Counted from the stretch's first letter, positions 3,955-27,288 are shown. The stretch is 32,000 nucleotides of DNA from Mycolicibacterium smegmatis (GCF_001457595.1 NZ_LN831039.1:6000001-6032000); one strand, 5' to 3'. Notes: a model not told the origin generated them from the sequence alone. Numbers and translations are program-made.

Positions 3955-4338
3955 TCAGAGCTCTTCGAGCGCGTCGGACACCGGCGTCGGCGTCACGTCG
4001 ATGCCGCACTGTGTGTGGAGATCGACGACGGGCTGGTTGATCTTCTGCAGATCCTGCGTCACCTGCGGATTGCCCGCGAAGAACGTCCGGTACAGGTCGT
4101 CGGCGCGATCGTCGGGCTGCCTGGCGATGTCGGTCAGCGCCCGGTCGGCCTCGGGATGCGCGGTCAGGTACGTGCTGGTGGACGCCGCCACCGAGCTGAC
4201 GGTGCTCGCGATCCCACTCTCGCTGCACTGATCGGGCTCGGCGTTCGCCATCGGGATCGTGAACCCGGCGGAGAGGACGCCGCCCGCGCACATGCCGTAC
4301 AAGCAGCGACGGACAGTGCGTGCGGACATCTTCTTCAT
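3955..4338 (-). CDS. secreted hemophore-related protein, Rv0203-like
   Basis: The signal peptide ends ANA|EP. The mature sequence DQCSESGIASTVSSVAASTSTYLTAHPEADRALT...NPQVTQDLQKINQPVVDLHTQC parallels M. tuberculosis Rv0203 (DPCAASEVARTVGSVAKSMGDYLDSHPETNQVMT...NPKVASDLHALSQPLTDLSTRC). Confidence 0.85.
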   Translation of the reverse strand: MKKMSARTVRRCLYGMCAGGVLSAGFTIPMANAEPDQCSESGIASTVSSVAASTSTYLTAHPEADRALTDIARQPDDRADDLYRTFFAGNPQVTQDLQKINQPVVDLHTQCGIDVTPTPVSDALEEL

Positions 4339-6432: not shown

Positions 6433-7218
6433 TCACTCGAAACGCAGGTGTACTGAACCTAACCCGGCGAAGTCGGCGACGAAATCACTACCGGCGGGTG
6501 CATCTATCGCACGTGTGCACGAGCCGGGGAGCACGATGTCGCCGGCCTTGAGCCGCACACCGAAACTCTCGACCTTGCGTGCCAGCCACGCGACCGCGGT
6601 CACCGGGTTGCCCAGCACCGCATCGCTGCGGCCCTCGGCGACCACCTCGCCGTTGTTCTTGAGGACGGCGTCGATGTTGCGAATGTCGATGTCCTTGGGC
6701 GACACCCGGGCCTCGCCCAGCACCCAGCCCGCCGACGACGCGTTGTCGGCGATGGTGTCGCACAGCTTGATCTGCCAGTTGGTGATACGCGTGTCGATGA
6801 GCTCGATGGCCGGCGCGAACGCCGCGGTCGCGGCGAGCACATCCTCTTCTGTGCAGCCCGCGCCCGGCAGATCGTCGGCGAGGATGAACCCGACCTCGAC
6901 CTCGACCCGCGGGTAGAGGTAGTTGGCGCTCTTGACGGGCTGATCCTCGTACACCTGCATGTCGTCGAGGAGGTGGCCGTAGTCCGGCTCGTCGACGCCC
7001 ATCATCTCCTGCATCGCCTTGCTGGACAGGCCCACCTTGTGGCCCACCACCTTGGCGCCTTCCGCGATGCGCTGACGGATGTTGATCAGCTGGATCTCGT
7101 AGGCGTCGACGACGTCGATGTCGGGATTTCCGTCGGTCAACGGAGTGATCGGTTGCCGGCTGCGCTCGGCTTGGGCCAGGTCGGCGGCAAGTCGCGCGCG
7201 CACCTCGTCACTGAGCAT
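6433..7218 (-). CDS. hsaE: 2-hydroxypentadienoate (2-keto-4-pentenoate) hydratase
   Basis: 261 aa MhpD/HsaE-type hydratase. It is first in an hsaE-hsaG-hsaF order identical to Rv3536c-Rv3534c and divergent from kstD. Confidence 0.9.
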
Positions 7219-7276
7219 TGTGGTGAAGTCCCCTCACTTCTTTGACCGGGGCGGTTGTTCGATCACCGGCCAATTC

Positions 7277-7290
7277 TATAACGTGTTCTA
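7277..7290. promoter_or_regulatory. KstR operator (TATAACGTGTTCTA) in the hsaE / kstD divergent region
   Basis: Fits TnnAACnnGTTnnA at all constrained positions. It ends 1 nt before the kstD ATG. kstD and hsaEGF are established KstR-regulon members in mycobacteria. Confidence 0.7.
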
Positions 7291-7291
7291 C

Positions 7292-8992
7292 ATGACTGGA
7301 CAGGAGTACGACGTTGTGGTGGTCGGGAGCGGTGCTGCCGGCATGGTCGCCGCCCTCACCGCAGCCCACCAGGGCCTCTCGACAGTAGTCGTAGAAAAGG
7401 CTCCGCACTACGGTGGTTCCACTGCGCGGTCAGGTGGTGGTGTGTGGATCCCGAACAACGAGATCCTCAAGCGCGACGGCGTCAAGGACACTCCTGACGA
7501 GGCGCGGAAATACCTGCACGCGATCATCGGTGACGTCGTCCCGGCCGAGAAGATCGACACGTATCTGGACCGCGGGCCGGAAATGCTGTCGTTCGTCCTC
7601 AAGCACTCGCCGCTGAAGCTGTGCTGGGTGCCCGGATACTCCGACTACTACCCCGAGACCCCGGGTGGCAAGCCCACGGGGCGGTCGGTCGAGCCGAAGC
7701 CGTTCGACGCCAACAAGCTGGGCCCCGACCTCAAAGGTCTCGAACCGCCGTACGGCAAGGTCCCCATGAACATGGTGGTCATGCAGCAGGACTACGTGCG
7801 GCTCAACCAGCTCAAACGTCATCCGCGCGGCGTACTGCGCAGCCTCAAGGTCGGCATCCGCGCGACGTGGGGCAAGGTCAGCGGCAAGAACCTCGTCGGT
7901 ATGGGCCGCGCGCTCATCGCGCCGCTGCGTATCGGCCTGCGCGAGGCCGGGGTTCCGGTGCTGCTGAACACCGCGCTGACCGATCTGTACGTCGAGGACG
8001 GCCGCGTGCTGGGCATCTACGTCCGCGACACGACGGCCGGCGACGACGCCGAGCCCCGGCTGATCCGCGCACGCCACGGCGTGATCCTCGGATCCGGCGG
8101 GTTCGAGCACAACGAGCAGATGCGCGTGAAGTACCAGCGCGCGCCCATCACCACGGAGTGGACCGTCGGCGCGGTCGCCAACACCGGCGACGGTATCGTC
8201 GCCGCCGAAAAGCTCGGGGCGGCACTCGAACTCATGGAAGACGCGTGGTGGGGCCCCACGGTTCCGCTGGTCGGCGCCCCGTGGTTCGCCTTGAGCGAGC
8301 GCAACTCCCCCGGATCGATCATCGTCAACATGTCCGGCAAGCGCTTCATGAACGAATCCATGCCCTACGTCGAGGCATGCCACCACATGTACGGCGGCCA
8401 GTACGGCCAGGGCCCCGGTCCCGGCGAGAACATCCCGGCGTGGCTCATCTTCGACCAGCAATACCGCGACCGCTACATCTTCGCCGGTTTGCAACCAGGG
8501 CAGCGGATCCCGTCGAAGTGGCTGGAATCCGGTGTGATCGTCAAGGCCGACACGCTGGTCGAACTGGCCGAGAAGACCGGCCTGCCCGCCGATCAGTTCA
8601 CCTCGACCATCGAGCGCTTCAACGGGTTCGCACGCTCGGGTGTCGACGAGGACTTCCACCGCGGCGAGAGTGCCTACGACCGTTACTACGGCGATCCCAC
8701 CAACAAACCCAACCCGAACCTGGGCGAGATCAAGCACGGCCCCTTCTACGCCGCCAAGATGGTGCCCGGTGACCTCGGCACCAAGGGCGGCATCCGCACC
8801 GACGTGCGCGGACGCGCTCTGCGCGACGACGATTCGGTGATCGAGGGTCTGTATGCTGCCGGCAATGTCAGCTCACCGGTGATGGGCCACACCTATCCGG
8901 GACCCGGCGGCACCATCGGTCCCGCCATGACATTCGGTTACCTGGCCGCACTCGACATCGCCGCTACCGCGGCGGCCTCCCGGAAGGGCTGA
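7292..8992 (+). CDS. kstD: 3-ketosteroid-delta1-dehydrogenase
   Basis: From ATG 7292 the protein reads MTGQEYDVVVVGSGAAGMVAALTAAHQGLSTVVVEKAPHYGGSTARSGGGVWIPNNEILKR. This is almost colinear with M. tuberculosis KstD (Rv3537), with an FAD GxGxxG fold at the N-terminus. The ORF-track start at 7118 would overlap hsaE and the operator. Confidence 0.95.
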   Translation: MTGQEYDVVVVGSGAAGMVAALTAAHQGLSTVVVEKAPHYGGSTARSGGGVWIPNNEILKRDGVKDTPDEARKYLHAIIGDVVPAEKIDTYLDRGPEMLSFVLKHSPLKLCWVPGYSDYYPETPGGKPTGRSVEPKPFDANKLGPDLKGLEPPYGKVPMNMVVMQQDYVRLNQLKRHPRGVLRSLKVGIRATWGKVSGKNLVGMGRALIAPLRIGLREAGVPVLLNTALTDLYVEDGRVLGIYVRDTTAGDDAEPRLIRARHGVILGSGGFEHNEQMRVKYQRAPITTEWTVGAVANTGDGIVAAEKLGAALELMEDAWWGPTVPLVGAPWFALSERNSPGSIIVNMSGKRFMNESMPYVEACHHMYGGQYGQGPGPGENIPAWLIFDQQYRDRYIFAGLQPGQRIPSKWLESGVIVKADTLVELAEKTGLPADQFTSTIERFNGFARSGVDEDFHRGESAYDRYYGDPTNKPNPNLGEIKHGPFYAAKMVPGDLGTKGGIRTDVRGRALRDDDSVIEGLYAAGNVSSPVMGHTYPGPGGTIGPAMTFGYLAALDIAATAAASRKG

Positions 8993-8993: not shown

Positions 8994-9854
8994 ATGCCAA
9001 TCGATCTCGACAAAGCACTGGGCGCCGAGCTGGAACCCATCGAGTTCTCGTGGACCAGCAGTGACATCCAGCTCTACCACCTGGGCCTCGGCGCCGGGGC
9101 GGACCCCATGGACGAGCGTGAGCTGCGGTACCTGGTCGACGGCACCCCGCAGGTGCTTCCGACGTTCGGCAACGTCGCGGCCAGCTTCCACATGACCGAG
9201 CCGCCCAAGGTGCAGTTCCCCGGCATCGACATCGAACTGTCCAAGGTGCTGCACGCCAGCGAGGCCGTCAGCGTGCCCGGCCCGATCCCCACGAGCGGCA
9301 CAGCGAAGTCGGTGCAGCGCTTCACCGAGATCTGGGACAAGGGCAAGGCCGCGGTGATCGTCAGCGAGACCACGGTCACCGACCCGTCCGGCAAGGTGCT
9401 GTGGACCACCAAGCGGTCCATCTTCGCGCGCGGCGAAGGTGGCTTCGGCGGCGAGCGCGGCCCCTCCACCTCGGTCGAACCGCCATCGCGGGCACCTGAT
9501 TTCGAGATCTCCCTGCCGACCCTGCCCCAGCAGGCGCTGCTGTACCGGCTGTGCGGTGACCGCAATCCGCTGCACTCCGACCCGGCCTTCGCCAAGGCCG
9601 CGGGCTTCGACCGGCCGATCCTGCACGGGCTGTGCACCTACGGCATCGGTTGCAAGGCCATCGTCGACAACCTGCTCGACGGCGACGTGTCGCGCGTGGC
9701 GAGCTACGGCGCCCGCTTCGCGGGCGTCGTGTTCCCCGGCGAGACGCTCTCGGCGAACATCTGGAAGGAAGACGGCAAGTTCATCGGCGTCCTGACCGCA
9801 CCGTCACGGGACAACACCGTCGTGCTCTCGGGTGTGGAGTTGGTCCCGGCGTAA
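8994..9854 (+). CDS. hsd4B: MaoC-like (R)-specific enoyl-CoA hydratase, double hot-dog (Rv3538/Hsd4B-like)
   Basis: 286 aa with the MaoC signature region YRLCGDRNPLHSDPAFAKAAGFDRPILHG. ATG 8994 lies 1 nt after the kstD stop and has a GGAAGGG RBS. The position is the same as Rv3538 after kstD. Confidence 0.85.
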   Translation: MPIDLDKALGAELEPIEFSWTSSDIQLYHLGLGAGADPMDERELRYLVDGTPQVLPTFGNVAASFHMTEPPKVQFPGIDIELSKVLHASEAVSVPGPIPTSGTAKSVQRFTEIWDKGKAAVIVSETTVTDPSGKVLWTTKRSIFARGEGGFGGERGPSTSVEPPSRAPDFEISLPTLPQQALLYRLCGDRNPLHSDPAFAKAAGFDRPILHGLCTYGIGCKAIVDNLLDGDVSRVASYGARFAGVVFPGETLSANIWKEDGKFIGVLTAPSRDNTVVLSGVELVPA

Positions 9855-12425
9855 CCGCGCGAGGTGCCGCAGCACCAGCTCGTATGCCTTCCATGCGAGC
9901 ACTCCGGCCACCAGCGCGATGACGGTCGCGGCGACAAGCCGTAGATCGTGCATCACTCCCGAAGGCGCCGGTCTGGGTACTCGTGCGTCCGGCTGGTCGA
10001 CCAACAGCGACCGACCCCACTCCAGAAGGAAGAAGGTCAGCGGCTGCGTCAGGTAGATCATCAGGGACGCACCGGCCAGGATGGCGGTGATGCGCCGTAG
10101 CCCAACGGGAACCGGCACGCGGGTGACCCAGATGAGCAGCAGCAAGCCACACGCGATGACGAGCTTTCGCCCGCTGTCGCCGTCGGAGAAACCCGGGAGC
10201 ATGGCACCGCACACGGCCGCGACCGTCAACAGCACACGCTCACGGTCGCGGGTCGCGCGCGCCGCTGCCCAGCCGATCGCGAACAACCACAGTGTGGCGA
10301 CCGGGCGATACAGCTCCATCGCGCCGTCACCAGAGAAGGGCTGGAACCTCAGCGCGAGGCCGACAGCGACGAGACCGGTGGCGAACCCGAACGGCCAGGT
10401 CCGTTCGACACGACGGACCGCCGGGATCGCCAGCAGCACTGCGCAGAAGACAAGTGCGAGAACCAGCACCTCGATGAACCAGTAGTTCCACACCGGGTCC
10501 CAGGCATCCGGTCCGAGCTCGGGTCCTTCCGGTGCGAAGAGGTGCTCGATGAGCAGGATGTTCCATACGTCGTAGTGCCGCGTGATCGCGTAGGCGACCG
10601 CGATCACGATCACGGACGGAACCACGATGCGCACGATCGACCGGATCAAAGGCCGAACCCGTCCGCTCGTCGCGACCGCGCTGAGTTGAAATCGGGCGAA
10701 GCTGTGGCCGGCGACCGCAAGCAGAACGTGCGCGCCGCCGAACAGATACGTCAGGCCCACGTGATTGGCGCACACCAGGACGATCGCCACGGCACGCAGA
10801 ACGGTGCTGAGTTCCATCCATGCGAAGAGGCCACGCTGCTTGCTCCGCGCGTGCTGTTCCAGATCGGCGACGCTGCGCAGGTACCAGTGCGTGGGGAGTG
10901 TGCCGAGAAGATCATCGAGACGCCGTGACGTCTCGACGTAGGACAGCGAGTCACCTCCGAGGCTGACGAACGTATCGGTGTCCGCGACTTCGTCGACCGC
11001 GAGAACCTCACGGTAGAGCGCACGCACGTCACTGTTTTGCGCTGCGGGAGCGGCACTTTCTGTGCCTTGGGTGCGGCTTTCGGCGAGCCGCAGCACGCCC
11101 GCGTAGTCCGGTTTGCCGTTGGCGTTGTGGGGCAGTTCGTCGAGCACCACGGTCCGCACGGCGGTGGCGGGCAGACCCACCTTCGTGCAGACGACTGGGA
11201 CCGGATCGGGCGTGCTCCGCGTGACCGCGACGATCAGTCGTGCGTCGTCCCCCGCGCACAGGGCCTCGATGCCGTCGGCTCGCAGGCTGTGCTCCAGCTG
11301 GTCGAGGTCGACGCGTAGGCCGAACAGCTTCAGGAACCGGCTGCGCCGGCCGATGATCTCGTACAACCCATCGGCGCGGCGACGGGCCAGATCGCCGGTG
11401 TGAAGACAATCGATGGTGCGCCCGAGCGCGAGGTCACGAGACGTTGTGGCGTAGCCGAGCATGACATTCGGACCGTGGTAGATCAGTTCGGAGTCGCCGT
11501 CGATGGTGAATGCCCCACCGGGAATGGGCTGCCCGATCGCCTCGGGCGCATCGAGTACGCGCTCGGGCGGGAGGTACGCCATACGGGCGGTGGCCTCGGT
11601 CTGTCCGTACATGACGACCAGATCCCAGCCCCTGCGATGTCCGAGCTCGGCGAACCTCCGCACCCGGGCGGCGCTCATCTTGCCACCGGCTTGAGTGACG
11701 TAACGCAGGCTGGGCAGTTCGATATCGGCGAAACCCACGCTGTCCAGGAGGTCGAATGTGTAGGGGACCCCCGCGAACGACGTCGCCCCGGTCGCGCGCG
11801 CCAGGTCCCAGAATCCGGCGTCCACCACCGACAATCCGGTGACGACCACCGTCGCACCCTGCGTCAGATGGCTGTGCAGCACCGAGAGCCCGTAACAGTA
11901 GGACAACGGCAGCACCGTCATCGCCCGATCGGAGCCGTCGATTCCCAGGTACTGCGCGATCGCGCGGGCGTTGCTGTCGAGGTTCGCGTGGCTCAGGCGC
12001 ACCAATTTCGGTGAGCCGGTCGATCCCGATGTGGACAGCAGGAGCGCCAGGTCGGGATGCAGCTCATGCCGTGTAGTCAGGCGGCGCCGGTGCACTGTCC
12101 ACCCGTCTGCACCGTCGGTACCGATCACCACGTCGGGGTCGTATGCCGCCACTAGTGCGTCACGAGAGTCGGCGTTGGACGCCACCAGCACCACGTGCCC
12201 CGCACGCAACGCGGCCAGGTAGCTCACGATCGCCTCGACCGTGTTCCTCAGCTCGATCAGCACCAGGCAGCGGGCCATATCACACAGCTGTGACTCTGCC
12301 GAAACACGCGCGGAGAGTTCGGCATACGTGATGGTGCGCCGGTCGGTGATCAGGGCCGGGTGGTCTGAATGTTCATCCCACCCGTCGAGAAAACCCGCCC
12401 CACTCGCACCTGCCGTGCCGCGCAC
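9804..12425 (-). CDS. tri-domain fusion: adenylate-forming enzyme (AMP-binding) + phosphopantetheine carrier domain + acyltransferase_3 (OafA/OatA-type) integral-membrane domain
   Basis: 873 aa with a GTG start. Adenylation core motifs are LLSTSGSTGSPK, VMYGQTEA, HTGDLARRRADG, GRRSRFLKLFGLRVDLDQLE and NANGKPD. The carrier motif is FVSLGGDSLSYVE (Ser codon 10947-10949). A roughly 330-aa multi-TM domain follows, opening with the AT3 hallmark LRAVAIVLVCANH. The 3' end overlaps the hsd4B 3' end by 51 nt (convergent). Confidence 0.85.
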   Translation of the reverse strand: MRGTAGASGAGFLDGWDEHSDHPALITDRRTITYAELSARVSAESQLCDMARCLVLIELRNTVEAIVSYLAALRAGHVVLVASNADSRDALVAAYDPDVVIGTDGADGWTVHRRRLTTRHELHPDLALLLSTSGSTGSPKLVRLSHANLDSNARAIAQYLGIDGSDRAMTVLPLSYCYGLSVLHSHLTQGATVVVTGLSVVDAGFWDLARATGATSFAGVPYTFDLLDSVGFADIELPSLRYVTQAGGKMSAARVRRFAELGHRRGWDLVVMYGQTEATARMAYLPPERVLDAPEAIGQPIPGGAFTIDGDSELIYHGPNVMLGYATTSRDLALGRTIDCLHTGDLARRRADGLYEIIGRRSRFLKLFGLRVDLDQLEHSLRADGIEALCAGDDARLIVAVTRSTPDPVPVVCTKVGLPATAVRTVVLDELPHNANGKPDYAGVLRLAESRTQGTESAAPAAQNSDVRALYREVLAVDEVADTDTFVSLGGDSLSYVETSRRLDDLLGTLPTHWYLRSVADLEQHARSKQRGLFAWMELSTVLRAVAIVLVCANHVGLTYLFGGAHVLLAVAGHSFARFQLSAVATSGRVRPLIRSIVRIVVPSVIVIAVAYAITRHYDVWNILLIEHLFAPEGPELGPDAWDPVWNYWFIEVLVLALVFCAVLLAIPAVRRVERTWPFGFATGLVAVGLALRFQPFSGDGAMELYRPVATLWLFAIGWAAARATRDRERVLLTVAAVCGAMLPGFSDGDSGRKLVIACGLLLLIWVTRVPVPVGLRRITAILAGASLMIYLTQPLTFFLLEWGRSLLVDQPDARVPRPAPSGVMHDLRLVAATVIALVAGVLAWKAYELVLRHLARLRRDQLHTREHDGVVP

Positions 12426-12634
12426 AGCAAATATTGTGTCAGCATCTGGCGTCGACCGTCACCGACTCAGCGAACTTGCCCCGAGTATGAATAACTTGCC
12501 TTTCGTCGTGACACCGGTGATGTAGAGTCCGTTGCCAGCAAGCGCCTCGCGTTTCCACAGCATCTTGGCGATGAGCGCCCCGGTAGCGGCAGAGGGTGCG
12601 TCCCATACGATCTGCCGCCCCACATGCGAACGAG

Positions 12635-14242
12635 ATGCGAATGAAGAGCACTGACGAATCCCCTTACGACGCAATCGTCGTGGGTTCCGGCGCGGCAGGG
12701 TCCTGGGCGGCCAAAGAGCTGACCGAAAGTGGTCTGCGAGTGGTCCTGCTGGAGGCCGGTCGGGCTGTTGATCCCGCGAGGGATTTTCCCGCTGAGGCGC
12801 CGACGGGCGCCATCGGGATGGCGAGCCGCGCAAAAGCCGCCGTCAGCGGCCAATTCGTCCAGGCGCAGTGCGCGGCATTCTTCGAGACCACCAAGCACTT
12901 CTACGTCAACGACCGGCAGAACCCGTACACCACAACGCCTGGTAAACGGTTTCTCTGGTATCGCGGCCGCCAACTCGGGGGCCGTCTGCACACATGGTCC
13001 AGGCATGTTCCGCGGATGTCGGACAACGAATTCAAATCCGCGAGCCTGCGTGGGCACGGCATCGACTGGCCGATCTCGTACGAGGACGTGGCGCCGTTCT
13101 ACGACATCGTCGAACAGACGCTCGGCGTCCACGGCGCCCCTTCGGGCATCGCTTCCTGCCCCGACGGGAAATTCCTCGGACCCGCGAAAACCACGCAGAT
13201 AGAGGAGAAGTTCAAGACCAGCCTCGAGAACCGCTTACCGAACGTGCGTGTGACCTACGGAAGAACTGTCAGGTACGACCGGGAAAGAATCCCGCTGCCG
13301 CTACGCCTCGCCATGGGTACCGGAAACCTCGAGATCCGTACCGACGCCGTCGTACGCCGCCTGATGATCGATCCACGGACCGGGAAAGCCGTGGGCGTCG
13401 ACTACGTCGACCGGAGCACCGGCGCGGCGCAAGCCGTTCACGGCAGGGTGGTCGTGCTGTGCGCGTCGGCGATCGAAAGCGTCAGGATCCTTCTGAATTC
13501 AAGAACCGCAACGCATCCCGCCGGTGTGGGCAACTCGTCCGGCCATCTCGGCAGGTACGTATGTGATCACGTCGCCTACGCGCAGAGCGGCAGCGTTGCC
13601 GAACACGAGATCGAACCAAGTCCCGCCGAAGACGGGTTCGACTTCGCCGCGACCGGTCTGTACATCCCGAATTTCTGCGACCCTGCCGCCGTCGGATTTC
13701 CCGGTGGCTATGGTATTCAGATCGGCATCGGACGTGGTAAGCCGACCTGGAGCATGTACGCCCTCGGGGAGATGCAACCGCGGTTCGACAACCGGGTGTC
13801 ACTGGACCCCAGGGTCACCGATGCGTGGGGCGTGCCGGCCGCGCGGATCGAGTGCAGCCACTCCCCTGACGAGGTCAGGATGGTCGGCCACATGCGGTCG
13901 ACGATCCGCGAGATCGCCACGGCCGGTGGCCTTCCGGTCGAAAACGATCATGACCTCGGGCGCCGCAGCATCGCACTGCGATTGCTTCGGTCCCGCTTCT
14001 TCACCGACTACGGCGCGTACTGGCCGGGGGCGGCCGTCCACGAGAGCGGCGGCGCCAGAATGGGCGAGCGCCCGGACAACTCGGTACTCAATCCCTACTG
14101 TCAGGTCTGGGATGCCGACAACGTCTTCGTGACCGACGGCGCGTGTTTCGTCTCATCGGGTTTCCAGAACCACACCCTCACGATGATGGCACTCACCGTG
14201 CGGGCGTGCCGGTTCATCGCTGAGGATTACTTGAAGCACTGA
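12635..14242 (+). CDS. GMC-family FAD-dependent oxidoreductase
   Basis: N-terminal FAD fold: YDAIVVGSGAAGSWAAKELTESGLRVVLLEAG. C-terminal GMC block: AVHESGGARMG...NVFVTDGACFVSSGFQNHTLTMMAL. The start is uncertain between ATG 12635 and ATG 12641. GTG 12596 directly abuts its putative SD and is less likely. Confidence 0.85.
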   Translation: MRMKSTDESPYDAIVVGSGAAGSWAAKELTESGLRVVLLEAGRAVDPARDFPAEAPTGAIGMASRAKAAVSGQFVQAQCAAFFETTKHFYVNDRQNPYTTTPGKRFLWYRGRQLGGRLHTWSRHVPRMSDNEFKSASLRGHGIDWPISYEDVAPFYDIVEQTLGVHGAPSGIASCPDGKFLGPAKTTQIEEKFKTSLENRLPNVRVTYGRTVRYDRERIPLPLRLAMGTGNLEIRTDAVVRRLMIDPRTGKAVGVDYVDRSTGAAQAVHGRVVVLCASAIESVRILLNSRTATHPAGVGNSSGHLGRYVCDHVAYAQSGSVAEHEIEPSPAEDGFDFAATGLYIPNFCDPAAVGFPGGYGIQIGIGRGKPTWSMYALGEMQPRFDNRVSLDPRVTDAWGVPAARIECSHSPDEVRMVGHMRSTIREIATAGGLPVENDHDLGRRSIALRLLRSRFFTDYGAYWPGAAVHESGGARMGERPDNSVLNPYCQVWDADNVFVTDGACFVSSGFQNHTLTMMALTVRACRFIAEDYLKH

Positions 14243-14249
14243 CAGCCAT

Positions 14250-14855
14250 ATGCCTGGTTCAAGGTACAGTCGCGACATGCCCGATACCGCCAGGGGCGCG
14301 AAACTCACACCCCGCCGGCGACGCTTTCGCAACGGGATGTTGGCGTTCTGCCTGATTCTCACCGCAGCACTGGTCGCCGGGTTACCGGTTTACGTCTTTC
14401 CCCAAGTCGATCCGCCGCGGCATGCCGACGCCGTCCTGATCCTCGGCGGCCCGGATTATCGCCGATACGGATTCGGGTTCGATCTGGGCAGGGAGGGTTG
14501 GGCGCAAACCGTCGTGGTATCGAACCCGAATGGGGCCGACGACCCGTTCATGACCGAGTACTGTGCCGAACCGCATCCTGAATTCCATTTGATCTGCTTC
14601 ATTCCGGATCCCCGAACGACCAAGGGGGAAGGACGAGAACTCCGCCGGTTGGCGGAAGAGAACGGCTGGCAGCGGGTCATCGTGGTGACCATTCGACCGC
14701 ACATCTCCCGGGCGAGGTACATCCTCGAACAGTGCTATGCCGGCGAACTGGTGATGGTGGCTCTGCCGGTTCGGTTGTCGTTGTTCGAGTGGGCGTTCCA
14801 CTACGTCTACCAGACGGCTGGTTATGCGCGAGCGATGTTGCAACCCGGATGTTGA
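14250..14855 (+). CDS. DUF218 (YdcF/ElyC/SanA-like) membrane-anchored protein
   Basis: An N-terminal Arg-rich segment and a TM helix (MLAFCLILTAALVAGLPVYVF) are followed by the DUF218-type core (DAVLILGGPDY...RTTKGEGRELRRLAEENGWQRVIVVTIRPHISRARY). The alternative start is ATG 14277. Confidence 0.8.
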   Translation: MPGSRYSRDMPDTARGAKLTPRRRRFRNGMLAFCLILTAALVAGLPVYVFPQVDPPRHADAVLILGGPDYRRYGFGFDLGREGWAQTVVVSNPNGADDPFMTEYCAEPHPEFHLICFIPDPRTTKGEGRELRRLAEENGWQRVIVVTIRPHISRARYILEQCYAGELVMVALPVRLSLFEWAFHYVYQTAGYARAMLQPGC

Positions 14856-14889
14856 GTGGACGGCACCATTTCGGACCTACGATGACGAC

Positions 14890-15501
14890 ATGACGCGTGA
14901 CCGACGGACGACACTGCTCACGCTCGCGCGCGTCTGGGCCTATCCGTTGTGGTTCACCGTCAACCGATCGGACGCGGCGGACGTGGTCACCGAGGATGTC
15001 GACTGGTGGATGAGCTGCATCGACGATCCCGATCTGTCTGCCCTCGATCACTATTCGCGTTTCGCCTACCTGAGTGGCGCGCTGTGTGAATTCCGCACGC
15101 TCGTCCACTACCGGCTGCGATCTGTTCCATGGCCGCTGCGCGTGCTCCTGCGCAAGCTGTACCCGCCCGAACCCACCCTGACGCTCGACGTCGGCAGCAT
15201 CGGGCCGGCCTTCTTCATCCAGCACGGTGTGGGGACCATCGTCGCCGCGGAATCCATCGGGTCCCACTGCTGGATCAACCAGCAGGTCACCATCGGGCAC
15301 AACACTCGAGGCAGGCCGACATTGGGCGACCACGTGCGGGTGGGGGCCGGAGCGGTGGTGATCGGTCCGATCACCCTGCACGACAGAGCGACGATCGGAG
15401 TCAACGCGACGGTGATCCACGATGTGCCCGCCGGCGCGACCGTCGTCGCACCCGCTGCGACGATGCTCAACCGACCGGCGACCGGCGACGCACAAGCCTA
15501 G
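14890..15501 (+). CDS. hexapeptide-repeat acetyltransferase, serine-O-acetyltransferase (CysE)-like, polysaccharide-cluster type
   Basis: Left-handed beta-helix repeats: FFIQHGVGTIVAAESIGSHCWINQQVTIGHNTRGRPTLGDHVRVGAGAVVIGPITLHDRATIGVNATVIHDVPAGATVV. The start is uncertain (ATG 14890 chosen; ATG 14824 would overlap the DUF218 gene by 32 nt). The 3' end overlaps the flippase 3' end by 35 nt. Confidence 0.8.
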   Translation: MTRDRRTTLLTLARVWAYPLWFTVNRSDAADVVTEDVDWWMSCIDDPDLSALDHYSRFAYLSGALCEFRTLVHYRLRSVPWPLRVLLRKLYPPEPTLTLDVGSIGPAFFIQHGVGTIVAAESIGSHCWINQQVTIGHNTRGRPTLGDHVRVGAGAVVIGPITLHDRATIGVNATVIHDVPAGATVVAPAATMLNRPATGDAQA

Positions 15502-16786
15502 GCACCCACAGCAGATCAGGGAGTACCTGCGCTGTGAGGATCGCAAGCGCCGAAGCGAACACCACCCCGACCGCACCGAAGCGGGCAACCACCAGGCATC
15601 CGAGCCCGATGCTGACGGCTGCCATCGTCAACGTCCAAAGCGCCTGCCACCGAGCCTCATTCGACCTGGTCAGAAGGACCGAGGACGCGAAATGCACGGC
15701 TTGGCCGACCAGGACGGCGCCGAACGCCAGGGCAAGCCAAGCAGAAACATCGATCTCTCCATCCGACAGCACCGATGCCGCCCAGGGGCCGAGCAACCCC
15801 AGGAGCACCATCGCCACGATCCCCACGACAGCCAGCGCGACCGTGAGTTGCCACCACATGCGGATCGTCGCGTCCACGACGCTTCTTCTCTTGACGAAGA
15901 TCGGCCAGTACGCCAGGGCCGCAGTCGACAGGATCTGCCAGCCGATCGCGTAGATCTGCGCCATCAACGCGTAACGGGACAATTCCTCGGGCGTCGAAAG
16001 GTGCGCCAACAGAACTCGTCCGCCCTGAGACCCGATCGGAATGCCCACGCCGACCAGGAACAGCCACATACTGCCGGCCAGCAGGCGAGTTCCTGCTCGC
16101 GACGAGGACACCGACGAGAACACGTCCGCTCCGAGCCCGGACAGTCGCAGCGCCAGTACGGTACCGACCAACTGGCCGATGAGCAGACCACCCAGTGCCG
16201 ATATGGCATACCAGATCCCACTTGCTCCCATGCCACGCAGTACGAGTGTGAGTCCCAGCCCGAATGCGGGGCAGCTCATCAAAACCAGTGTGGCCATCGG
16301 ATTCCGGTCTATGCCCACCAGGATCCGCGGCCCGAGGCCGGCTGGAATGGTCAGTGCAAATATGCACACGGCAACAGTGATCGCCCAGCGGTCCTCGGGG
16401 CCGCTGGCGAATCCGATCGCCGCGCGCCATCCGTCGAGCACCATGACACCCAACGCGATCGCGATCAGGGTGCCGGCGACCAGGAAAAGGACGCGGTAGG
16501 CGCGCCGGATGACATCGACGGCCTCATCATGATCTTTGCCGCCGAGCATCGCCGCGGCGTTGATCGCCGTGGCTCCGATACCGAGGTCGGCAAACGGAAA
16601 CAACAGGGTGACCGTGGCGATGAGTGAGACCAGACCGAACACGGCTTCGCCTGTCTCGCGGACGATGATCGCCGTGTTCAGCAGGCCCAGCAACGCCACG
16701 ACCGGTGTTCCGAGGATGCGGTACAGCGGGCCGAGCACCAGCGAACGGCGCTCCTCGGGTGCCAGACGCCCCTGATCGGTCGTCAT
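15467..16786 (-). CDS. MOP-superfamily oligosaccharide/polysaccharide flippase (Wzx-like)
   Basis: 439 aa and multi-TM throughout (…VVALLGLLNTAIIVRETGEAVFGLVSLIATVTLLFPFADLGIG…). ATG 16786 overlaps the upstream GT2 stop (ATGA). The ORF-track extension to 17137 is Arg-rich and lies inside the GT2 gene. Confidence 0.8.
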   Translation of the reverse strand: MTTDQGRLAPEERRSLVLGPLYRILGTPVVALLGLLNTAIIVRETGEAVFGLVSLIATVTLLFPFADLGIGATAINAAAMLGGKDHDEAVDVIRRAYRVLFLVAGTLIAIALGVMVLDGWRAAIGFASGPEDRWAITVAVCIFALTIPAGLGPRILVGIDRNPMATLVLMSCPAFGLGLTLVLRGMGASGIWYAISALGGLLIGQLVGTVLALRLSGLGADVFSSVSSSRAGTRLLAGSMWLFLVGVGIPIGSQGGRVLLAHLSTPEELSRYALMAQIYAIGWQILSTAALAYWPIFVKRRSVVDATIRMWWQLTVALAVVGIVAMVLLGLLGPWAASVLSDGEIDVSAWLALAFGAVLVGQAVHFASSVLLTRSNEARWQALWTLTMAAVSIGLGCLVVARFGAVGVVFASALAILTAQVLPDLLWVPRLVRRRSPVG

Positions 16787-19616: not shown

Positions 19617-19620
19617 CGAC

Positions 19621-20745
19621 ATGCGCATCCTGCAGGTGGTGACATTGTTCAGTCCGGACGGTCTGTACGGCGGACCCACCCGCGTGGCACTCAACCAGAG
19701 CGCCGAACTGGCCGGCCGCGGGCACGAGGTGACGATCGCGGGGGCGGCACGTGGTTACGAGGCATTACCGAGCGAGCTGAACGGAGTGCCGGTCAAACTG
19801 TTTGCTGCCACAAACATATTGCGCCGATCAGGGTTTGCCTGGACCTACGCCCCAGGTCTCACGAGCTGGCTGCGTCGCAACTGGCGCGAATTCGACACCG
19901 TACATGTTCACTTGGCGCGCGACCTCGTCACCATGCCGGTGGCCGCAGTGGTGCGTCGGCGCGGAATCCCGTATGTGCTACAGACACACGGCATGGTCGT
20001 GCCGACGAACCATTCACTTGCCACACCGCTGGATCGGATGTGGACCCACGACATTCTCCGTCACGCGCGTGCAGTGTTCTTCCTCGACTCGGTGGAACGG
20101 GAACAGCTCATCGCTGTCGCCGGGCCTGATCTGCGGCTCGTAGAACTGGGCAACGGCGTACCTGAGTACCCCACCGCCCACTCGGGCCGAACTTTGGGGC
20201 GAGCACCGGAGGTGCTTTTCGCAGCGCGCATGCATGCGAGGAAACGACCCGTGGTATTCATTGAGATGGCAAGGGAATTGCTTGCATCCGGCATGGACGC
20301 CCGATTCACCTTGGTGGGGCCGGACGAAGGTGAGGGCCCGGCCATTCGGGCAGCACTCGGTGGAGATCCGCGGATCACCTGGGAGGGTGCGCTGAGCCCC
20401 GAAGCCATCCCGGCACGGATGGCCGAAGCAGATGTCTACGTGCTCCCATCCGTTCGAGAACCGTTCCCGATGTCGGTACTGGAGGCGATGTCGGTCGGCC
20501 TGCCTGTTGTCGTGACCGACGACTGCGGCCTGGCACCGATCATCGAGCAGTGTGGTTGTGGTGCCGTCACCGACCCGTCGGTGTCCGGTCTGGCGGCGGC
20601 CGTCGGCGCGATCCTCCGCGATCGCGCGCATACCAAGTCGATCGGCGAACGCGGCAGAGAAACCGTGGTCGAACGCTTCGGCATGCGACCAGTCGGGGAT
20701 CGCCTCGTGAGCACGTACTCCGACGCCCTGGTAGGTGCGCCATGA
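19621..20745 (+). CDS. family-4 (GT-B) glycosyltransferase
   Basis: MRILQVVTLFSPDGLYGGPTRVALNQSAELAGRGHEVTI at the N-terminus. The E-x7-E region is PSVREPFPMSVLEAMSVGLPVVVTD. 374 aa, and the stop overlaps the next ATG (ATGA). Confidence 0.9.
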   Translation: MRILQVVTLFSPDGLYGGPTRVALNQSAELAGRGHEVTIAGAARGYEALPSELNGVPVKLFAATNILRRSGFAWTYAPGLTSWLRRNWREFDTVHVHLARDLVTMPVAAVVRRRGIPYVLQTHGMVVPTNHSLATPLDRMWTHDILRHARAVFFLDSVEREQLIAVAGPDLRLVELGNGVPEYPTAHSGRTLGRAPEVLFAARMHARKRPVVFIEMARELLASGMDARFTLVGPDEGEGPAIRAALGGDPRITWEGALSPEAIPARMAEADVYVLPSVREPFPMSVLEAMSVGLPVVVTDDCGLAPIIEQCGCGAVTDPSVSGLAAAVGAILRDRAHTKSIGERGRETVVERFGMRPVGDRLVSTYSDALVGAP

Positions 20746-21401
20746 AGAAAAACGAGACGGTTCACCAGCGGATCCGGTGGGTCATCGGCCTCTTCCTCGG
20801 CCTGCAGCTGGTTCTCGCGTCCACACTCGCCTGGACACCGGCCACAGCCGGCGTGCCGCCGGTGACCATCGCCGTGATCGGTGATCAGAACACGGCCGGC
20901 ATCAAGAACCGGGTCGTCTGGCCGACGCTGATGGCTGCGAGAAACGGTTGGTCGGTGTCCAATTACGCACTCCCCGAATCGGGTTTCGCGGCAGACGGAA
21001 TGGGTGGCCAGGCCTTCAGGTATCAGGTGGAACGTGCGCAGGCGCAGCACCCGCGCGTGATCCTGCTGATGACCGGCACTGCCGACGCCTCCGTGCCGGA
21101 GATGACTGCGGTCACCGTCGGAGCGGTCGAGGCGATCAACAAGGTCATCCGGGGTGGTCAACAGGTGGCCGTGGTCGGTCCGTTCTGGTACGAAACACCC
21201 GTTCCCGAGTCAGTTCGTCGGGTTGACGACGCCGTTCGGAAAGCCGCCGCGCAGACCGGGGTGCCGTATTTCGATGCCCTTGACCCGCCCCTGTTCACCA
21301 GGGCTCAGATGCACCCTGACCGCACTGGCCCGAGCGATGAAGGACAGTCGATTGCCGCGGACAAGATCGCGACATGGCTCCGAACGCAGGTCCTGAAATG
21401 A
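20742..21401 (+). CDS. exported SGNH/GDSL-fold protein with degenerate catalytic blocks
   Basis: Signal peptide: MKKNETVHQRIRWVIGLFLGLQLVLASTLAWTPATA. Block I reads IAVIGDQNTAG (Gln where the nucleophilic Ser is expected). Block III reads GTAD (GxND expected). Block V retains His (MHPD) but no Asp at -3. 219 aa. Confidence 0.7.
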   Translation: MKKNETVHQRIRWVIGLFLGLQLVLASTLAWTPATAGVPPVTIAVIGDQNTAGIKNRVVWPTLMAARNGWSVSNYALPESGFAADGMGGQAFRYQVERAQAQHPRVILLMTGTADASVPEMTAVTVGAVEAINKVIRGGQQVAVVGPFWYETPVPESVRRVDDAVRKAAAQTGVPYFDALDPPLFTRAQMHPDRTGPSDEGQSIAADKIATWLRTQVLK

Positions 21402-22150
21402 ACAGCACTCGCTGGCTGGACCTCGGCGCAATCACCCTCGCGGCCGCGATCGCGCTCGGCATCGCCGGAATCTCCCGCCCTGAGGTCGTGACAACGCCTT
21501 ACTCGACGTCGTCCTCTGTCCGCGAAGACCACGCACCGCCCGACACACGACCGCTCGCATTGTTCATCGGTGATTCGTACACCGCGGGTGAAAGCTCTGC
21601 CGAGTTGTCTTATGCATGCCGGGCGGCGCTTCGGATGGGCTGGCTGTGCGCGCTGTCGGCGGTCGGCGGGACGGGTTACATCAGCGGCGGCCCGGCGAAT
21701 CGCTGGGACGATCCGTACACCGGCAAGTCGTTGTCGTTCATCGAACGTATCCCCGGGCTGTCCGCCAAGTACGACCCCGACCTGGTGGTGCTCGACGGAG
21801 GACGAAACGACGATTTCGCCCCACGCACATATGCGTTCGAGGAAACGGTCTCGACACTCGGTGAGGTGCGCCGGGCATGGCCGCGGGCTCAGATCGTCTT
21901 CGTCCGGCCCCGTTTCCTGGACGACCCCACTGACGATTTGGGTATGACCGACGAGTTCATGGCACGCCTGAAGGCGACGCCCGACGCCAAAGGGGTGATC
22001 TTCATCGATCCGCTCAGCACGTTGTCCGGCACAGATACGTCAGATCTGCTCGCATCGGACAAGATTCACCCCAACGCCGAAGGAGAAAAGCGGATTCTCG
22101 CGGCTCTGATCGAAGCACTTCAGACGCGAAACGTCAGGCCACCGTCGTGA
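21398..22150 (+). CDS. membrane-anchored SGNH/GDSL hydrolase or acyl-esterase/transferase (catalytic blocks intact)
   Basis: N-terminal TM anchor: LDLGAITLAAAIALGIAGI. Block I is FIGDSYTAGE, block II GGTGY, block III LDGGRNDD and block V DKIHPNAEG. The ATG overlaps the upstream stop (ATGA). Confidence 0.8.
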   Translation: MNSTRWLDLGAITLAAAIALGIAGISRPEVVTTPYSTSSSVREDHAPPDTRPLALFIGDSYTAGESSAELSYACRAALRMGWLCALSAVGGTGYISGGPANRWDDPYTGKSLSFIERIPGLSAKYDPDLVVLDGGRNDDFAPRTYAFEETVSTLGEVRRAWPRAQIVFVRPRFLDDPTDDLGMTDEFMARLKATPDAKGVIFIDPLSTLSGTDTSDLLASDKIHPNAEGEKRILAALIEALQTRNVRPPS

Positions 22151-23459: not shown

Positions 23460-23470
23460 AAGCGGCGTCG

Positions 23471-27287: not shown

Positions 27288-27288
27288 T

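What the first reader, a model, noticed from the sequence alone, without database searches (positions are those of the whole stretch)
9804..12425. Adenylation domain, carrier protein and AT3 membrane acyltransferase fused in one polypeptide: a carrier-protein-fed trans-membrane glycan acylation machine
**Seen in the sequence.** One 873-aa ORF joins three parts.
- (i) A complete adenylate-forming domain with motifs LLSTSGSTGSPK, YGQTEA, TGDLARR, GRRSRFLKLFGLRVDL and NANGKPD.
- (ii) A carrier domain with the phosphopantetheinylation motif GGDSL.
- (iii) A multi-TM acyltransferase_3 domain opening with LRAVAIVLVCANH.

**Established knowledge.** AT3 proteins (OafA, OatA, WecH, mycobacterial SucT) use cytoplasmic acyl-CoA donors and pass the acyl group outward, often to a fused SGNH domain. 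In the Dlt pathway an adenylating enzyme (DltA) loads a carrier (DltC), which feeds an unrelated MBOAT (DltB), and an SGNH-fold protein (DltD) finishes the transfer.

**Inference.** This protein looks like a hybrid of the two logics. A self-loaded acyl-S-carrier would deliver directly into an AT3 channel, and the two exported SGNH proteins of the same locus (20742-22150) would be candidate final transferases. The A4 region reads LPLSYCYGLS, like the PLxH..G of acyl/aryl-CoA ligases, rather than the FD.. of amino-acid-activating domains. This suggests a non-amino carboxylic acid substrate. I know of no characterised example of this architecture.
Basis: partly seen in the sequence, partly recalled or inferred. 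Interest (0 to 1): 0.82.

Follow-up and report, generated by a model that had tools for sequence, protein, structure and literature searches.

The report
Self-loading membrane acyltransferase (A–PCP–AT3 fusion)
A Mycolicibacterium smegmatis gene fuses an ATP-driven acid-activating enzyme, its carrier domain and a membrane acyltransferase that normally uses acyl-CoA. It belongs to a large, unstudied actinobacterial family whose other members are mostly switched on by iron starvation.

Summary
ORF 9804-12425 (-) encodes one 873-aa protein. It has an adenylation domain, a carrier domain (Ser493) and a 10-helix AT3 domain (R544-X10-H555). All three pass the Pfam cut-offs, and every quoted motif is present.

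It is not a frameshift: 86 related loci each carry one uninterrupted ORF. The exact protein is from M. smegmatis.

The fusion defines a large family, found in at least 593 species genomes. The best 80 are all Actinomycetota, and the proteins are annotated only as "AMP-binding protein". Ten full-text searches found no paper on it.

The carrier-fed AT3 logic is well supported in silico:
- the catalytic residues are invariant;
- there is no Asp235 equivalent, so the substrate is probably not an alpha-amino acid;
- the PCP-to-TM1 tether is short;
- the topology is N-in.

The glycan/SGNH part holds only for the M. smegmatis clade, which always sits at the edge of a Wzx/Wzy polysaccharide island.

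Most other members carry an IdeR/DmdR iron box directly upstream. About half of all loci examined adjoin an FbpABC ferric-iron importer, and none shows SGNH genes. Substrate and acceptor remain unknown.

Verdict: a new variant of a known kind, testable in a model organism.

The parts
9804..12425 (-). Whole gene: 873-aa A-PCP-AT3 fusion protein. GTG start at 12425, stop codon at 9804-9806.
   Evidence: ORF list. Pfam domains. Identical protein in M. smegmatis. Intact single ORF in 86 related loci.
11061..12425 (-). Adenylation (ANL/NRPS-type) domain, residues 1-455. P-loop at 129-140, YGQTE at 273-277, TGD at 343-345, hinge GRRSRFLKLFGLR at 359-371, A10 Lys438.
   Evidence: Pfam AMP-binding 135.9 bits. 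TIGR01733 covers residues 33-383. PDB sequence matches to LgrA, E = 1e-26. Fold matches to A-PCP structures. K140, E277, D345, R360 and K438 are invariant.
11889..11891 (-). Gly179, in the invariant YCYGLS stretch. It occupies the position of the alpha-amino-binding Asp235 of amino-acid-activating A domains.
   Evidence: HMMER alignment to LgrA module 2 pairs YCYGLSV with YIFDISV. The column is invariant in 57 sequences. The PheA numbering is from my own knowledge.
11583..11585 (-). Arg281, in the invariant TEATARMAY stretch. It is the predicted pocket position 331 in PheA numbering and a candidate binder of an anionic or polar group on the substrate.
   Evidence: Invariant in 57 of 57 sequences. 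The mapping to PheA is my inference and was not tested.
10842..11048 (-). Carrier (PCP/ACP) domain, residues 460-528.
   Evidence: Pfam PP-binding 26.1 bits against a cut-off of 20.8. Foldseek matches to PCPs and ACPs, probability 0.98-1.0 and rmsd 2.0-2.6 A.
10947..10949 (-). Ser493 of GGDSL, the predicted phosphopantetheine attachment site.
   Evidence: Invariant in 57 of 57 sequences. Codon checked.
9876..10811 (-). AT3 (Acyl_transf_3) membrane domain, residues 539-850. Ten helices, N-in/C-in. An Arg-rich cytoplasmic tail follows (residues 847-873).
   Evidence: Pfam 46.1 bits against a cut-off of 31. Helices in both AF2 models. K+R are concentrated in alternate loops.
10761..10796 (-). R544-X10-H555 motif in TM1, the AT3 family's essential R/K-X10-H motif.
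   Evidence: Motif definition from PMC9558356. The spacing is exactly 10 in 57 of 57 sequences, and R and H are invariant.
12426..12595 (.). Intergenic region of 170 bp shared with the divergent GMC oxidoreductase gene. It has no IdeR/DmdR iron box, unlike most homologues.
   Evidence: Sequence read. The best PWM score anywhere in the window is 1.9, against a median of 29 for the sites in homologue loci.
12596..14242 (+). GMC oxidoreductase (MSMEG_5944), divergently transcribed. It is the conserved neighbour in this clade.
   Evidence: Pfam. Conserved neighbour in L001, L006, L008, L087, L088 and L089. Locus tag from PMC10454040.
14250..31915 (.). Wzx/Wzy-type polysaccharide island: DUF218, two hexapeptide acyltransferases, a Wzx flippase, GT2, GT4, two SGNH genes, Wzz, an epimerase, UDP-sugar dehydrogenase, Wzy_C, FemAB-like GNATs and a deacetylase. 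It is the candidate source of the acceptor.
   Evidence: Pfam scans. GC is lower than in the left flank. The same gene order occurs in the clade.
21374..22150 (+). SGNH protein 2. It has an N-terminal membrane anchor, GDS in block I and DKIH in block V. It is the only catalytically plausible SGNH partner.
   Evidence: Pfam Lipase_GDSL_2 56.7 bits. Sequence read.
20742..21401 (+). SGNH protein 1. It has a signal or anchor sequence, but block I reads GDQ and block V lacks the Asp, so it is probably not a working transferase.
   Evidence: Pfam 44.2 bits. Sequence read.

Best explanation
The protein is a self-loading membrane acyltransferase.

**Proposed steps**
1. The cytoplasmic A domain activates a carboxylic acid with ATP. 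The acid is not an alpha-amino acid and is probably small and polar, for example a hydroxy-, keto- or dicarboxylic acid.
2. The A domain thioesterifies the acid onto the phosphopantetheine arm of Ser493 in its own carrier domain.
3. That arm has the same chemistry as the pantetheine arm of CoA. It enters the cytoplasmic mouth of the fused AT3 domain (R544...H555) in place of acyl-CoA.
4. The AT3 domain passes the acyl group to an acceptor at the outer face of the membrane.
5. In M. smegmatis the most likely acceptor is the polysaccharide made by the adjacent Wzx/Wzy island.

**What is shown and what is inferred**
- Shown: the domain anatomy, the conservation of catalytic residues, the topology and the gene context.
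- Inferred: donor hand-off from PCP to AT3, the identity of the acid, and the acceptor.
For: - Three domains pass the Pfam cut-offs, in the order A-PCP-AT3.
- The following are invariant in 57 homologues of 46-98% identity: the A-domain catalytic residues (K140, E277, D345, R360, K438), the Ppant Ser493, and the AT3 residues R544 and H555.
- The R-X10-H spacing is exact in 57 of 57 sequences. The Ser493-to-R544 distance is held to 46-57 residues.
- Ten helices with K/R-rich alternate loops give an N-in topology. This places A-PCP in the cytoplasm at the end of TM1 that carries R544.
- The PCP-AT3 didomain model has pTM 0.86.
- There is no Asp235 equivalent.
- The fusion is kept as one ORF in 86 of 86 loci and in at least 593 species genomes.
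- In the M. smegmatis clade (64-100% identity) the gene always borders the same polysaccharide island. In two loci an NTP_transferase gene ends 3 bp upstream on the same strand.
- Between clades the A core is the most conserved part (57%). The extracytoplasmic TM3-4 loop is the least conserved (29%). This fits a constant donor and a changed acceptor.
Against: - No biochemistry exists; every step is inferred.
- The gene is its own transcription unit, divergent from the island.
- The island already has four other acyltransferase-type genes: two hexapeptide and two FemAB-like GNAT genes.
- Outside this clade, relatives of the window's GMC, Wzx and SGNH genes are absent. Most loci instead carry an iron box, and about half of all loci examined carry FbpABC genes. 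The family's core role may therefore not concern a capsule-like glycan at all.
- The strict RXXR motif of the first cytoplasmic loop is not met in this protein. It has R578, R589-V-R591 and R595.
- No solved AT3 structure confirms the fold. The best match is 8jkv_A at probability 0.82.
- I could not measure the Ser493-to-His555 distance because model coordinates are not returned.
Confidence: 0.5

Rival explanations
1. The enzyme chemistry is the same, but the biological role is iron acquisition, as in the rest of the family. The protein would acylate a surface or membrane acceptor with a metal-binding acid so that Fe(III) can be captured and passed to an FbpA-type binding protein. The M. smegmatis copy has merely lost the iron box, and its place beside the polysaccharide island is incidental.
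For: - 62 iron-box sites were found in 84 non-redundant loci. Of these, 53 lie within -200..+150 of the gene's ORF start, 9 lie upstream of a preceding ABC operon, and none lies elsewhere. Shuffled sequence gives 0.45.
- A PWM recovers most of the remaining loci.
- A ferric-binding-protein ABC importer is adjacent in 42 of 87 loci, in four different arrangements across several orders.
- The binding protein matches solved FbpA/HitA structures at E = 1e-73.
- The predicted pocket residues are identical in both clades.
Against: - The window, M. goodii, M. hodleri and L006 have no iron box (best score 4.4 or less) and no Fbp genes within 10 kb.
- This clade is a separate long branch, apart from the ABC-linked mycobacterial clade.
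- Its outer-face loop has diverged strongly.
- Its synteny with the polysaccharide island holds over 64-100% identity.
Confidence: 0.2
2. The acceptor is not a glycan but a lipid or small molecule, acylated in or at the membrane. This would resemble AT3 enzymes that acylate macrolides or trehalose mycolates, and the Aas or MbtM/L/K logic in which an adenylating enzyme and a carrier feed an acyltransferase.
For: - AT3 enzymes with small-molecule or glycolipid acceptors (CmmA, TmaT) are described in PMC9558356.
- Most family members stand alone or with transport genes and have no glycan genes nearby.
- The NCBIfam hit list includes the acyl-ACP-phospholipid acyltransferase Aas at E = 2e-22, for the A part only.
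Against: - Nothing in the window encodes a small-molecule pathway next to the gene.
- The M. smegmatis clade is tied to a glycan island.
- The A domain is closer to NRPS and short-acid ligases than to fatty-acyl ligases.
Confidence: 0.17
3. The AT3 part is only a membrane anchor or scaffold. The A-PCP pair would feed a separate, trans-acting enzyme, as in NRPS-like systems.
For: - NCBI sometimes names homologues 'non-ribosomal peptide synthetase'.
- A few relatives carry extra domains: a second PCP in P0139 and PhoD in P0125.
Against: - R544, H555, H566, R578 and E652 of the AT3 domain are invariant across 57 sequences, and the R-X10-H spacing is exact. A mere anchor would not keep these.
- No condensation, thioesterase or reductase partner is conserved nearby.
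Confidence: 0.06
4. Artefact: two or three genes joined by a sequencing or assembly error.
For: None found.
Against: - One ORF spans the three domains in 86 of 86 loci from independent assemblies.
- The identical 873-aa protein is present in many M. smegmatis assemblies, including complete genomes.
Confidence: 0.01

Closest known systems
AT3 (Acyl_transf_3, PF01757) carbohydrate O-acyltransferases such as OafA/OafB, OatA, Oac and WecH
   Same: - A 10-helix membrane domain with the essential R/K-X10-H motif in TM1.
- An Arg-rich first cytoplasmic loop.
- The N terminus is in the cytoplasm.
- The presumed role is moving an acyl group from a cytoplasmic thioester to an extracytoplasmic acceptor.
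   Different: - The known members take acyl-CoA. The review states that acyl-CoA, rather than ACP, is the donor (PMC9558356).
- This protein has its own adenylation and carrier domains fused upstream.
- It has no 11th helix or SGNH domain. At most 74 residues follow the last helix in 57 homologues.
- The strict RXXR spacing is not kept.
Dlt pathway (DltA, DltC, DltB, DltD) for D-alanylation of teichoic acids (from my own knowledge)
   Same: The logic is the same: an adenylating enzyme loads a carrier protein, the carrier feeds a polytopic membrane acyltransferase, and the acyl group ends up on an extracytoplasmic polymer, with an SGNH-fold helper.
   Different: - DltB is an MBOAT, not an AT3.
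- The Dlt components are four separate proteins.
- DltA activates an alpha-amino acid; Gly179 here replaces the Asp that binds the alpha-amino group.
- None of the window genes I scanned with Pfam is an MBOAT.
AlmEFG of Vibrio cholerae, and Aas or LplT-Aas (from my own knowledge)
   Same: - An adenylating enzyme plus a carrier protein feeds an envelope acyltransferase.
- In Aas the adenylating and acyltransferase parts are fused.
   Different: - The acyltransferases there are of the lysophospholipid (PlsC/LABLAT) type, not AT3.
- The acceptors are lipid A or lysophospholipid.
- The carrier is a separate protein.
TIGR03098, the exosortase-A-associated acyl-CoA ligase (best NCBIfam match)
   Same: - It is the closest named A-domain profile: E = 1e-40, 139.6 bits.
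- By its name it is also associated with an exopolysaccharide system (the exosortase A system).
   Different: - The score is far below the family cut-off of 592, so this protein is not a member.
- To my knowledge that family is itself uncharacterised.
VanT (AT3 fused to a serine racemase)
   Same: It is a precedent for an AT3 domain fused to a soluble enzyme that is not an SGNH domain (PMC9558356).
   Different: - The fusion in VanT is C-terminal.
- The partner is a racemase, not a module that loads the acyl donor.

Membership tests
ANL / NRPS-type adenylation domain | Profile match above the curated cut-off. | tested here: met
   Pfam AMP-binding scores 135.9 bits against 29.9. TIGR01733 aligns residues 33-383 to profile positions 1-400 of 409, but at 114.9 bits it is below its own cut-off of 317.
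ANL / NRPS-type adenylation domain | Core motifs: P-loop (A3), YGxTE (A5), TGD (A7), hinge GRxxxxxKxxGxR (A8) and the A10 lysine. | tested here: met
   All are present. K140, E277, D345, R360, K366 and K438 are invariant in 57 homologues.
Amino-acid-activating A domains (NRPS, DltA) | The Asp in motif A4 (PheA Asp235) that binds the substrate's alpha-amino group. | tested here: not met
   The A4 region reads YCYGLS. Alignments to LgrA place Cys177 or Gly179 at that position, and neither is Asp. The stretch is invariant.
Carrier protein (PP-binding) | Profile match, the GxDS motif with a conserved Ser, and a four-helix carrier fold. | tested here: met
   Pfam scores 26.1 bits against 20.8. Ser493 of GGDSL is invariant. 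Foldseek matches to PCPs and ACPs have probability 0.98-1.0.
Carrier protein (PP-binding) | Actual phosphopantetheinylation and acyl loading. | not testable with these tools
   This needs mass spectrometry of the recombinant A-PCP fragment with a PPTase.
AT3 (Acyl_transf_3) | Profile match above the cut-off and about 10 transmembrane helices. | tested here: met
   Pfam scores 46.1 bits against 31. Ten helices appear in both AF2 models. Charge distribution gives an N-in/C-in topology.
AT3 (Acyl_transf_3) | The R/K-X10-H motif in TM1. | tested here: met
   R544-X10-H555 is present. The spacing and both residues are invariant in 57 of 57 sequences. The motif definition is from PMC9558356.
AT3 (Acyl_transf_3) | The RXXR motif in the first cytoplasmic loop. 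| tested here: inconclusive
   The loop is Arg-rich (R578, R589, R591, R595, R599). The R586-x-x-R589 spacing is seen in only 36 of 57 homologues and not in this protein, which has T586.
AT3 (Acyl_transf_3) | Acyl-CoA as the acyl donor. | not testable with these tools
   The anatomy predicts acyl-S-PCP instead. A membrane assay comparing acyl-CoA with loaded PCP is needed.
AT3-SGNH two-domain acyltransferases | An 11th helix and a C-terminal extracytoplasmic SGNH domain. | tested here: not met
   The protein ends 27 residues after TM10. No homologue in the alignment has more than 74 residues there.
Dlt-type pathway | An MBOAT membrane component (DltB). | tested here: not met
   The membrane domain is an AT3. 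No MBOAT was found among the 30 window ORFs scanned.
Iron-regulated, FbpABC-linked subgroup of this same family | An IdeR/DmdR iron box upstream, and/or an adjacent ferric-iron ABC importer. | tested here: not met
   The window has no box (best PWM score 1.9, against a site median of 29) and no Fbp genes. The same holds for L001, L006 and L008.

The most novel reading that the evidence does not exclude
A-PCP-AT3 proteins would be the first AT3 acyltransferases fed by a built-in carrier protein instead of acyl-CoA. In most Actinomycetota they would form an iron-starvation-induced system that decorates the cell surface, or a membrane component, with a metal-binding acid. That would let an FbpABC importer take up Fe(III) without a diffusible siderophore. 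The M. smegmatis clade would be a duplicate re-used to acylate a Wzy-dependent polysaccharide.
Probability: 0.2. Interest if true: 0.9.

Novelty: new variant of a known kind. Interest (0 to 1): 0.74.

Why it matters
**Donor supply for AT3 enzymes.** AT3 enzymes modify O-antigens, peptidoglycan, capsules, mycobacterial arabinogalactan and antibiotics. The field's working rule is that they draw on cytoplasmic acyl-CoA pools. A version with its own adenylation and carrier module would show two things:
- the AT3 channel can accept a protein-tethered pantetheine thioester;
- bacteria can install acyl groups for which no CoA pool exists.

**Experimental access.** The PCP-AT3 tether gives a natural, stoichiometric donor-enzyme complex for structural work on a family with no close solved structure. 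The gene sits in M. smegmatis, where knock-outs and point mutants are routine.

**Iron.** An iron box lies in front of most family members, and ferric-iron importers adjoin about half of the loci examined. This points to an unrecognised component of actinobacterial iron acquisition.

Tried and rejected
**Ruled out**
- Frameshift or gene-fusion artefact.
- Membership of a named family. NCBIfam gives only sub-threshold hits, the best being TIGR03098 at 139 bits against a cut-off of 592.
- SGNH as a conserved partner. Relatives of the window's two SGNH genes occur only in this clade.
- Zur boxes and PhoP-type direct repeats. They show no positional enrichment.

**Searches that found nothing**
- All ten full-text literature searches found no paper on the architecture or on the M. 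smegmatis gene.
- The AT3 review does not mention the architecture.
- The S. coelicolor DmdR1 regulon paper does not list such a gene.
- A PDB sequence search with the AT3 part gave no hit even at E = 10.

**Limits of the tools**
- The Foldseek PDB search gave only one weak AT3-like match: 8jkv_A, described only as "membrane proteins", probability 0.82.
- I could not measure the Ser493-to-His555 distance because the models' coordinates are not returned.

**Left unresolved**
- The mc2155 locus tag. MSMEG_5944 is the GMC neighbour, and MSMEG_5943 is quoted as the end of the cholesterol cluster.
- Whether M. smegmatis also has an iron-type paralogue.
- The substrate. I mapped a Stachelhaus-type code from memory (G L L Y T A M A R K). 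It shows no Asp235 and an invariant Arg, but that does not identify the acid.

Full report
**1.

- The minus strand carries one ORF at 9804-12425. It has a GTG start and encodes 873 aa. Its third-position GC of 0.80 is typical of real genes in this window.
- Pfam finds three domains above their gathering scores:
  - AMP-binding, 135.9 bits;
  - PP-binding, 26.1 bits, residues 466-523;
  - Acyl_transf_3, 46.1 bits, residues 542-801.
- The NRPS adenylation profile TIGR01733 aligns residues 33-383.
- An AlphaFold model of the whole protein has mean pLDDT 82. Its best PDB fold matches are adenylation or adenylation-carrier structures: PltF-PigG, EntE-EntB, LgrA and EntF, at E about 1e-21.
- A model of residues 455-873 alone has pLDDT 87 and pTM 0.86. 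Its N-terminal part matches solved carrier proteins with probability 0.98-1.0.
- The membrane part has no close solved relative. A sequence search finds nothing even at E = 10. Foldseek finds one weak full-length match, 8jkv_A, at probability 0.82.

**2. It is one gene, in a known organism**

- All 86 related loci fetched from independent assemblies have a single uninterrupted ORF across the three domains.
- The exact 873-aa sequence is on record for Mycolicibacterium smegmatis (for example CKI41433.1). Strain mc2155 carries a near-identical copy in the same 90% cluster (ABK74667.1 / AFP42216.1).
- To the left lie cholesterol-catabolism genes:
  - HsaF/G/E-like genes;
  - KstD at 7118-8992;
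  - the MaoC hydratase at 8994-9854, whose 3' end overlaps our gene by 51 bp.
  KstD is MSMEG_5941.
- To the right, divergently transcribed across 170 bp, lies a GMC oxidoreductase (MSMEG_5944).
- An island of about 18 kb follows, with lower GC. It encodes DUF218, two hexapeptide acyltransferases, Wzx, GT2, GT4, two SGNH proteins, Wzz, an epimerase, a UDP-sugar dehydrogenase, a Wzy_C protein, two FemAB-like GNATs and a deacetylase.

**3. The fusion defines a large, unnamed family**

- A search with the whole protein returns hundreds of proteins of 830-920 aa with the same three Pfam domains. They come from Mycolicibacterium, Rhodococcus, Arthrobacter, Kocuria, Streptomyces, Micromonospora, Kineococcus and others. 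All are called "AMP-binding protein" or similar.
- A search with only the carrier-plus-AT3 part finds 1055 representative proteins at E <= 1e-10 among clusters at 50% identity. Most are 810-920 aa with the match starting near residue 460-500, which is the same architecture.
The best 80 are all Actinomycetota, across several orders.
- Ten full-text searches found no paper on this architecture or on the M. smegmatis gene.
- The 2022 review of AT3 proteins lists AT3 alone, AT3-SGNH and AT3-racemase (VanT). It concludes that acyl-CoA, "rather than" ACP, is the donor.

**4. Anatomy and likely mechanism**

Across 57 homologues of 46-98% identity, these residues are invariant:

| Domain | Invariant residues |
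|---|---|
| A domain (catalytic) | K140, E277, D345, R360, K366, K438 |
| Carrier | Ser493 |
| AT3 | R544, H555, H566, R578, E652 |

- R544-X10-H555 is the family's essential R/K-X10-H motif. Its spacing is exact in 57 of 57 sequences.
- The strict RXXR motif of the first cytoplasmic loop is not kept in this protein, although the loop holds five arginines. RXXR is thought to bind acyl-CoA. My speculation is that its relaxation would make sense if the donor carries no nucleotide.
- The ten helices have lysine and arginine concentrated in alternate loops and in the C-terminal tail. This gives an N-in/C-in topology and puts A-PCP in the cytoplasm.
- Only 46-57 residues separate Ser493 from R544 throughout the family.
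- It is established knowledge that the carrier's phosphopantetheine arm is the same chemical arm as in CoA. The simplest reading is therefore that the arm delivers the thioester into the AT3 entrance that normally receives acyl-CoA. This step is inferred, not shown.

**5. Substrate**

- The A4 stretch YCYGLS is invariant. HMMER alignments to LgrA place Cys177 or Gly179 where amino-acid-activating domains have the alpha-amino-binding Asp.
- Mapping from my memory of PheA numbering gives the pocket code G179, L180, L183, Y222, T244, A246, M272, A280, R281, K438. All but position 183 are at least nearly invariant.
- From memory, Gly at the first position occurs in NRPS domains that activate alpha-hydroxy or alpha-keto acids.
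- The invariant Arg281 suggests an anionic or polar substituent.
- The nearest non-NRPS relatives by sequence are oxalate-, malonate- and o-succinylbenzoate-CoA ligases.
- These are leads only.
- Because the pocket is the same in all clades, the acid is probably the same throughout the family.

**6. Two genomic contexts**

(a) The M. smegmatis clade:
- It comprises the window, M. goodii, M. hodleri and several assemblies with no species name, at 64-100% identity.
- The gene always lies between hsd4B and the same island. The order is SGNH-SGNH-GT4-hexapeptide-unknown-GT2-Wzx-hexapeptide-DUF218-(aldo-keto reductase)-GMC, then the fusion gene on the other strand.
- In two loci an NTP_transferase gene ends 3 bp upstream on the same strand. 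In one locus a GlmS-like gene lies downstream.

(b) Everywhere else:
- The IdeR/DmdR iron-box consensus TTAGGTTAGGCTAACCTAA (PMC4598388) occurs with 4 or fewer mismatches at 62 sites in 84 non-redundant loci (1.70 Mb).
- Of these sites, 53 lie within -200..+150 of the gene's ORF start, 9 lie upstream of a preceding ABC operon, and none lies elsewhere. Shuffled sequence gives 0.45.
- A matrix built from these sites recovers weaker boxes at the same place in most remaining loci.
- In 42 of 87 loci a three-gene ABC importer is adjacent. It occurs in four arrangements: divergent, operonic upstream, operonic downstream and convergent.
- The importer's binding protein matches solved ferric-binding proteins (FbpA/HitA/SfuA) at E down to 1.4e-73.
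- The window clade has neither the box (best score 4.4 or less, against a site median of 29) nor the importer.

How the two groups relate:
- In a neighbour-joining tree the family largely follows taxonomy. The window clade is a separate long branch, apart from the ABC-linked mycobacterial clade.
- The table gives the window protein's mean identity to sequences of the other clades, region by region.

| Region | Identity between clades |
|---|---|
| Adenylation core | 57% |
| AT3 domain | 43% |
| Extracytoplasmic TM3-4 loop | 29% (76% within the clade) |

- This pattern fits a constant donor and a changed acceptor. Relaxed constraint on loops would give the same pattern.

**7. The SGNH idea**

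- The two SGNH genes lie 8-9 kb away in another transcription unit.
- SGNH2 (21374-22150) has a membrane anchor, GDS and DxxH, so it could act outside the membrane.
- SGNH1 (20742-21401) has GDQ in block I and lacks the block V Asp.
- Relatives of these genes occur only in this clade.
- The four Pfam-annotated loci outside this clade have no SGNH gene within 10 kb.
- No homologue in the alignment has room for a fused SGNH domain.
- SGNH2 is a possible local partner, not a feature of the system.

**8. Verdict**

| Reading | Confidence |
|---|---|
| Self-loading, carrier-fed AT3 acyltransferase; in M. smegmatis it probably acylates the product of the neighbouring polysaccharide island | 0.5 |
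| Same chemistry, but serving iron capture as in the rest of the family | 0.2 |
| A lipid or small-molecule acceptor | 0.17 |
| The AT3 part is a mere anchor | 0.06 |
| Artefact | 0.01 |

- In what it works like, the system is closest to the Dlt pathway, but built on the other membrane acyltransferase family and fused into one chain.
- In membership, it is an ANL enzyme, a carrier protein and an AT3 protein. It is not a member of the amino-acid-activating, AT3-SGNH or Dlt families.
- I rate it a new variant of a known kind. It is widespread, unstudied and directly testable in M. smegmatis.

Noticed in passing
Homologue loci L002-L086, upstream of the fusion gene (for example L040:9916-9934, L064:3215-3233, L070:9912-9930). 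When ABC genes precede the fusion gene, the site lies upstream of the binding-protein gene instead (for example L033:6256, L063:5469, L074:6318).: An IdeR/DmdR iron box sits directly in front of most family members. There are 62 sites with 4 or fewer mismatches, all at these two kinds of position, against 0.45 expected. The window clade lacks it.
   Followed up: yes
For example L003:6098-9781, L005:12605-16262, L010 downstream of the fusion gene, L033 upstream of it.: An FbpABC-type ferric-iron ABC importer is adjacent in 42 of 87 loci, in four different arrangements across several actinobacterial orders. It comprises a binding protein related to solved FbpA/HitA (E = 1e-73), a fused double permease, and an ATPase with a TOBE_2 domain.
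   Followed up: yes
window 20742-21401 (+): The first of the two SGNH proteins has GDQ in place of the catalytic GDS, and it lacks the Asp of the DxxH block. It may be a non-catalytic paralogue.
   Followed up: partly
window 12596-31915: M. smegmatis carries a Wzx/Wzy/Wzz-type polysaccharide island with lower GC (0.58-0.65, against 0.64-0.71 in the left flank). It is inserted next to the cholesterol-catabolism gene hsd4B. I know of no described product for it.
   Followed up: partly
P0125 (1121 aa) and P0139 (1212 aa): Architectural variants of the family. P0125 is a PCP-AT3 protein fused to a C-terminal PhoD-like phosphatase. P0139 is an A-PCP-AT3 protein with a further PP-binding domain after the AT3 part.
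   Followed up: partly
L006:9204-9998, L089:9093-9998, L087:12677-14476: In some members of the window clade an NTP_transferase gene ends 3 bp before the fusion gene on the same strand. In one locus a GlmS-like amidotransferase lies between the fusion gene and hsd4B. This hints at a link to sugar-nucleotide metabolism.
   Followed up: no
window 28661-30394 (-), 30708-31493 (-), 31472-31915 (-): Two FemAB-like GNAT (Acetyltransf_6) genes flank a polysaccharide deacetylase gene at the far end of the island. They could add aminoacyl or acyl groups to a de-N-acetylated sugar.
   Followed up: no
window 9804-9854: The convergent fusion gene and the hsd4B (MaoC hydratase) gene overlap by 51 bp at their 3' ends. 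The same overlap is seen in M. goodii and L006.
   Followed up: no
window residues 616-648 of the protein (coordinates 10482-10580): The acidic extracytoplasmic loop between TM3 and TM4 is 76% conserved within the M. smegmatis clade but only 29% conserved against the iron-type clades. It is the most diverged part of the protein.
   Followed up: partly
window 3955-4338 (-): A haemophore (MHB domain) gene lies among the cholesterol-catabolism genes. It appears unrelated to the finding.
   Followed up: no
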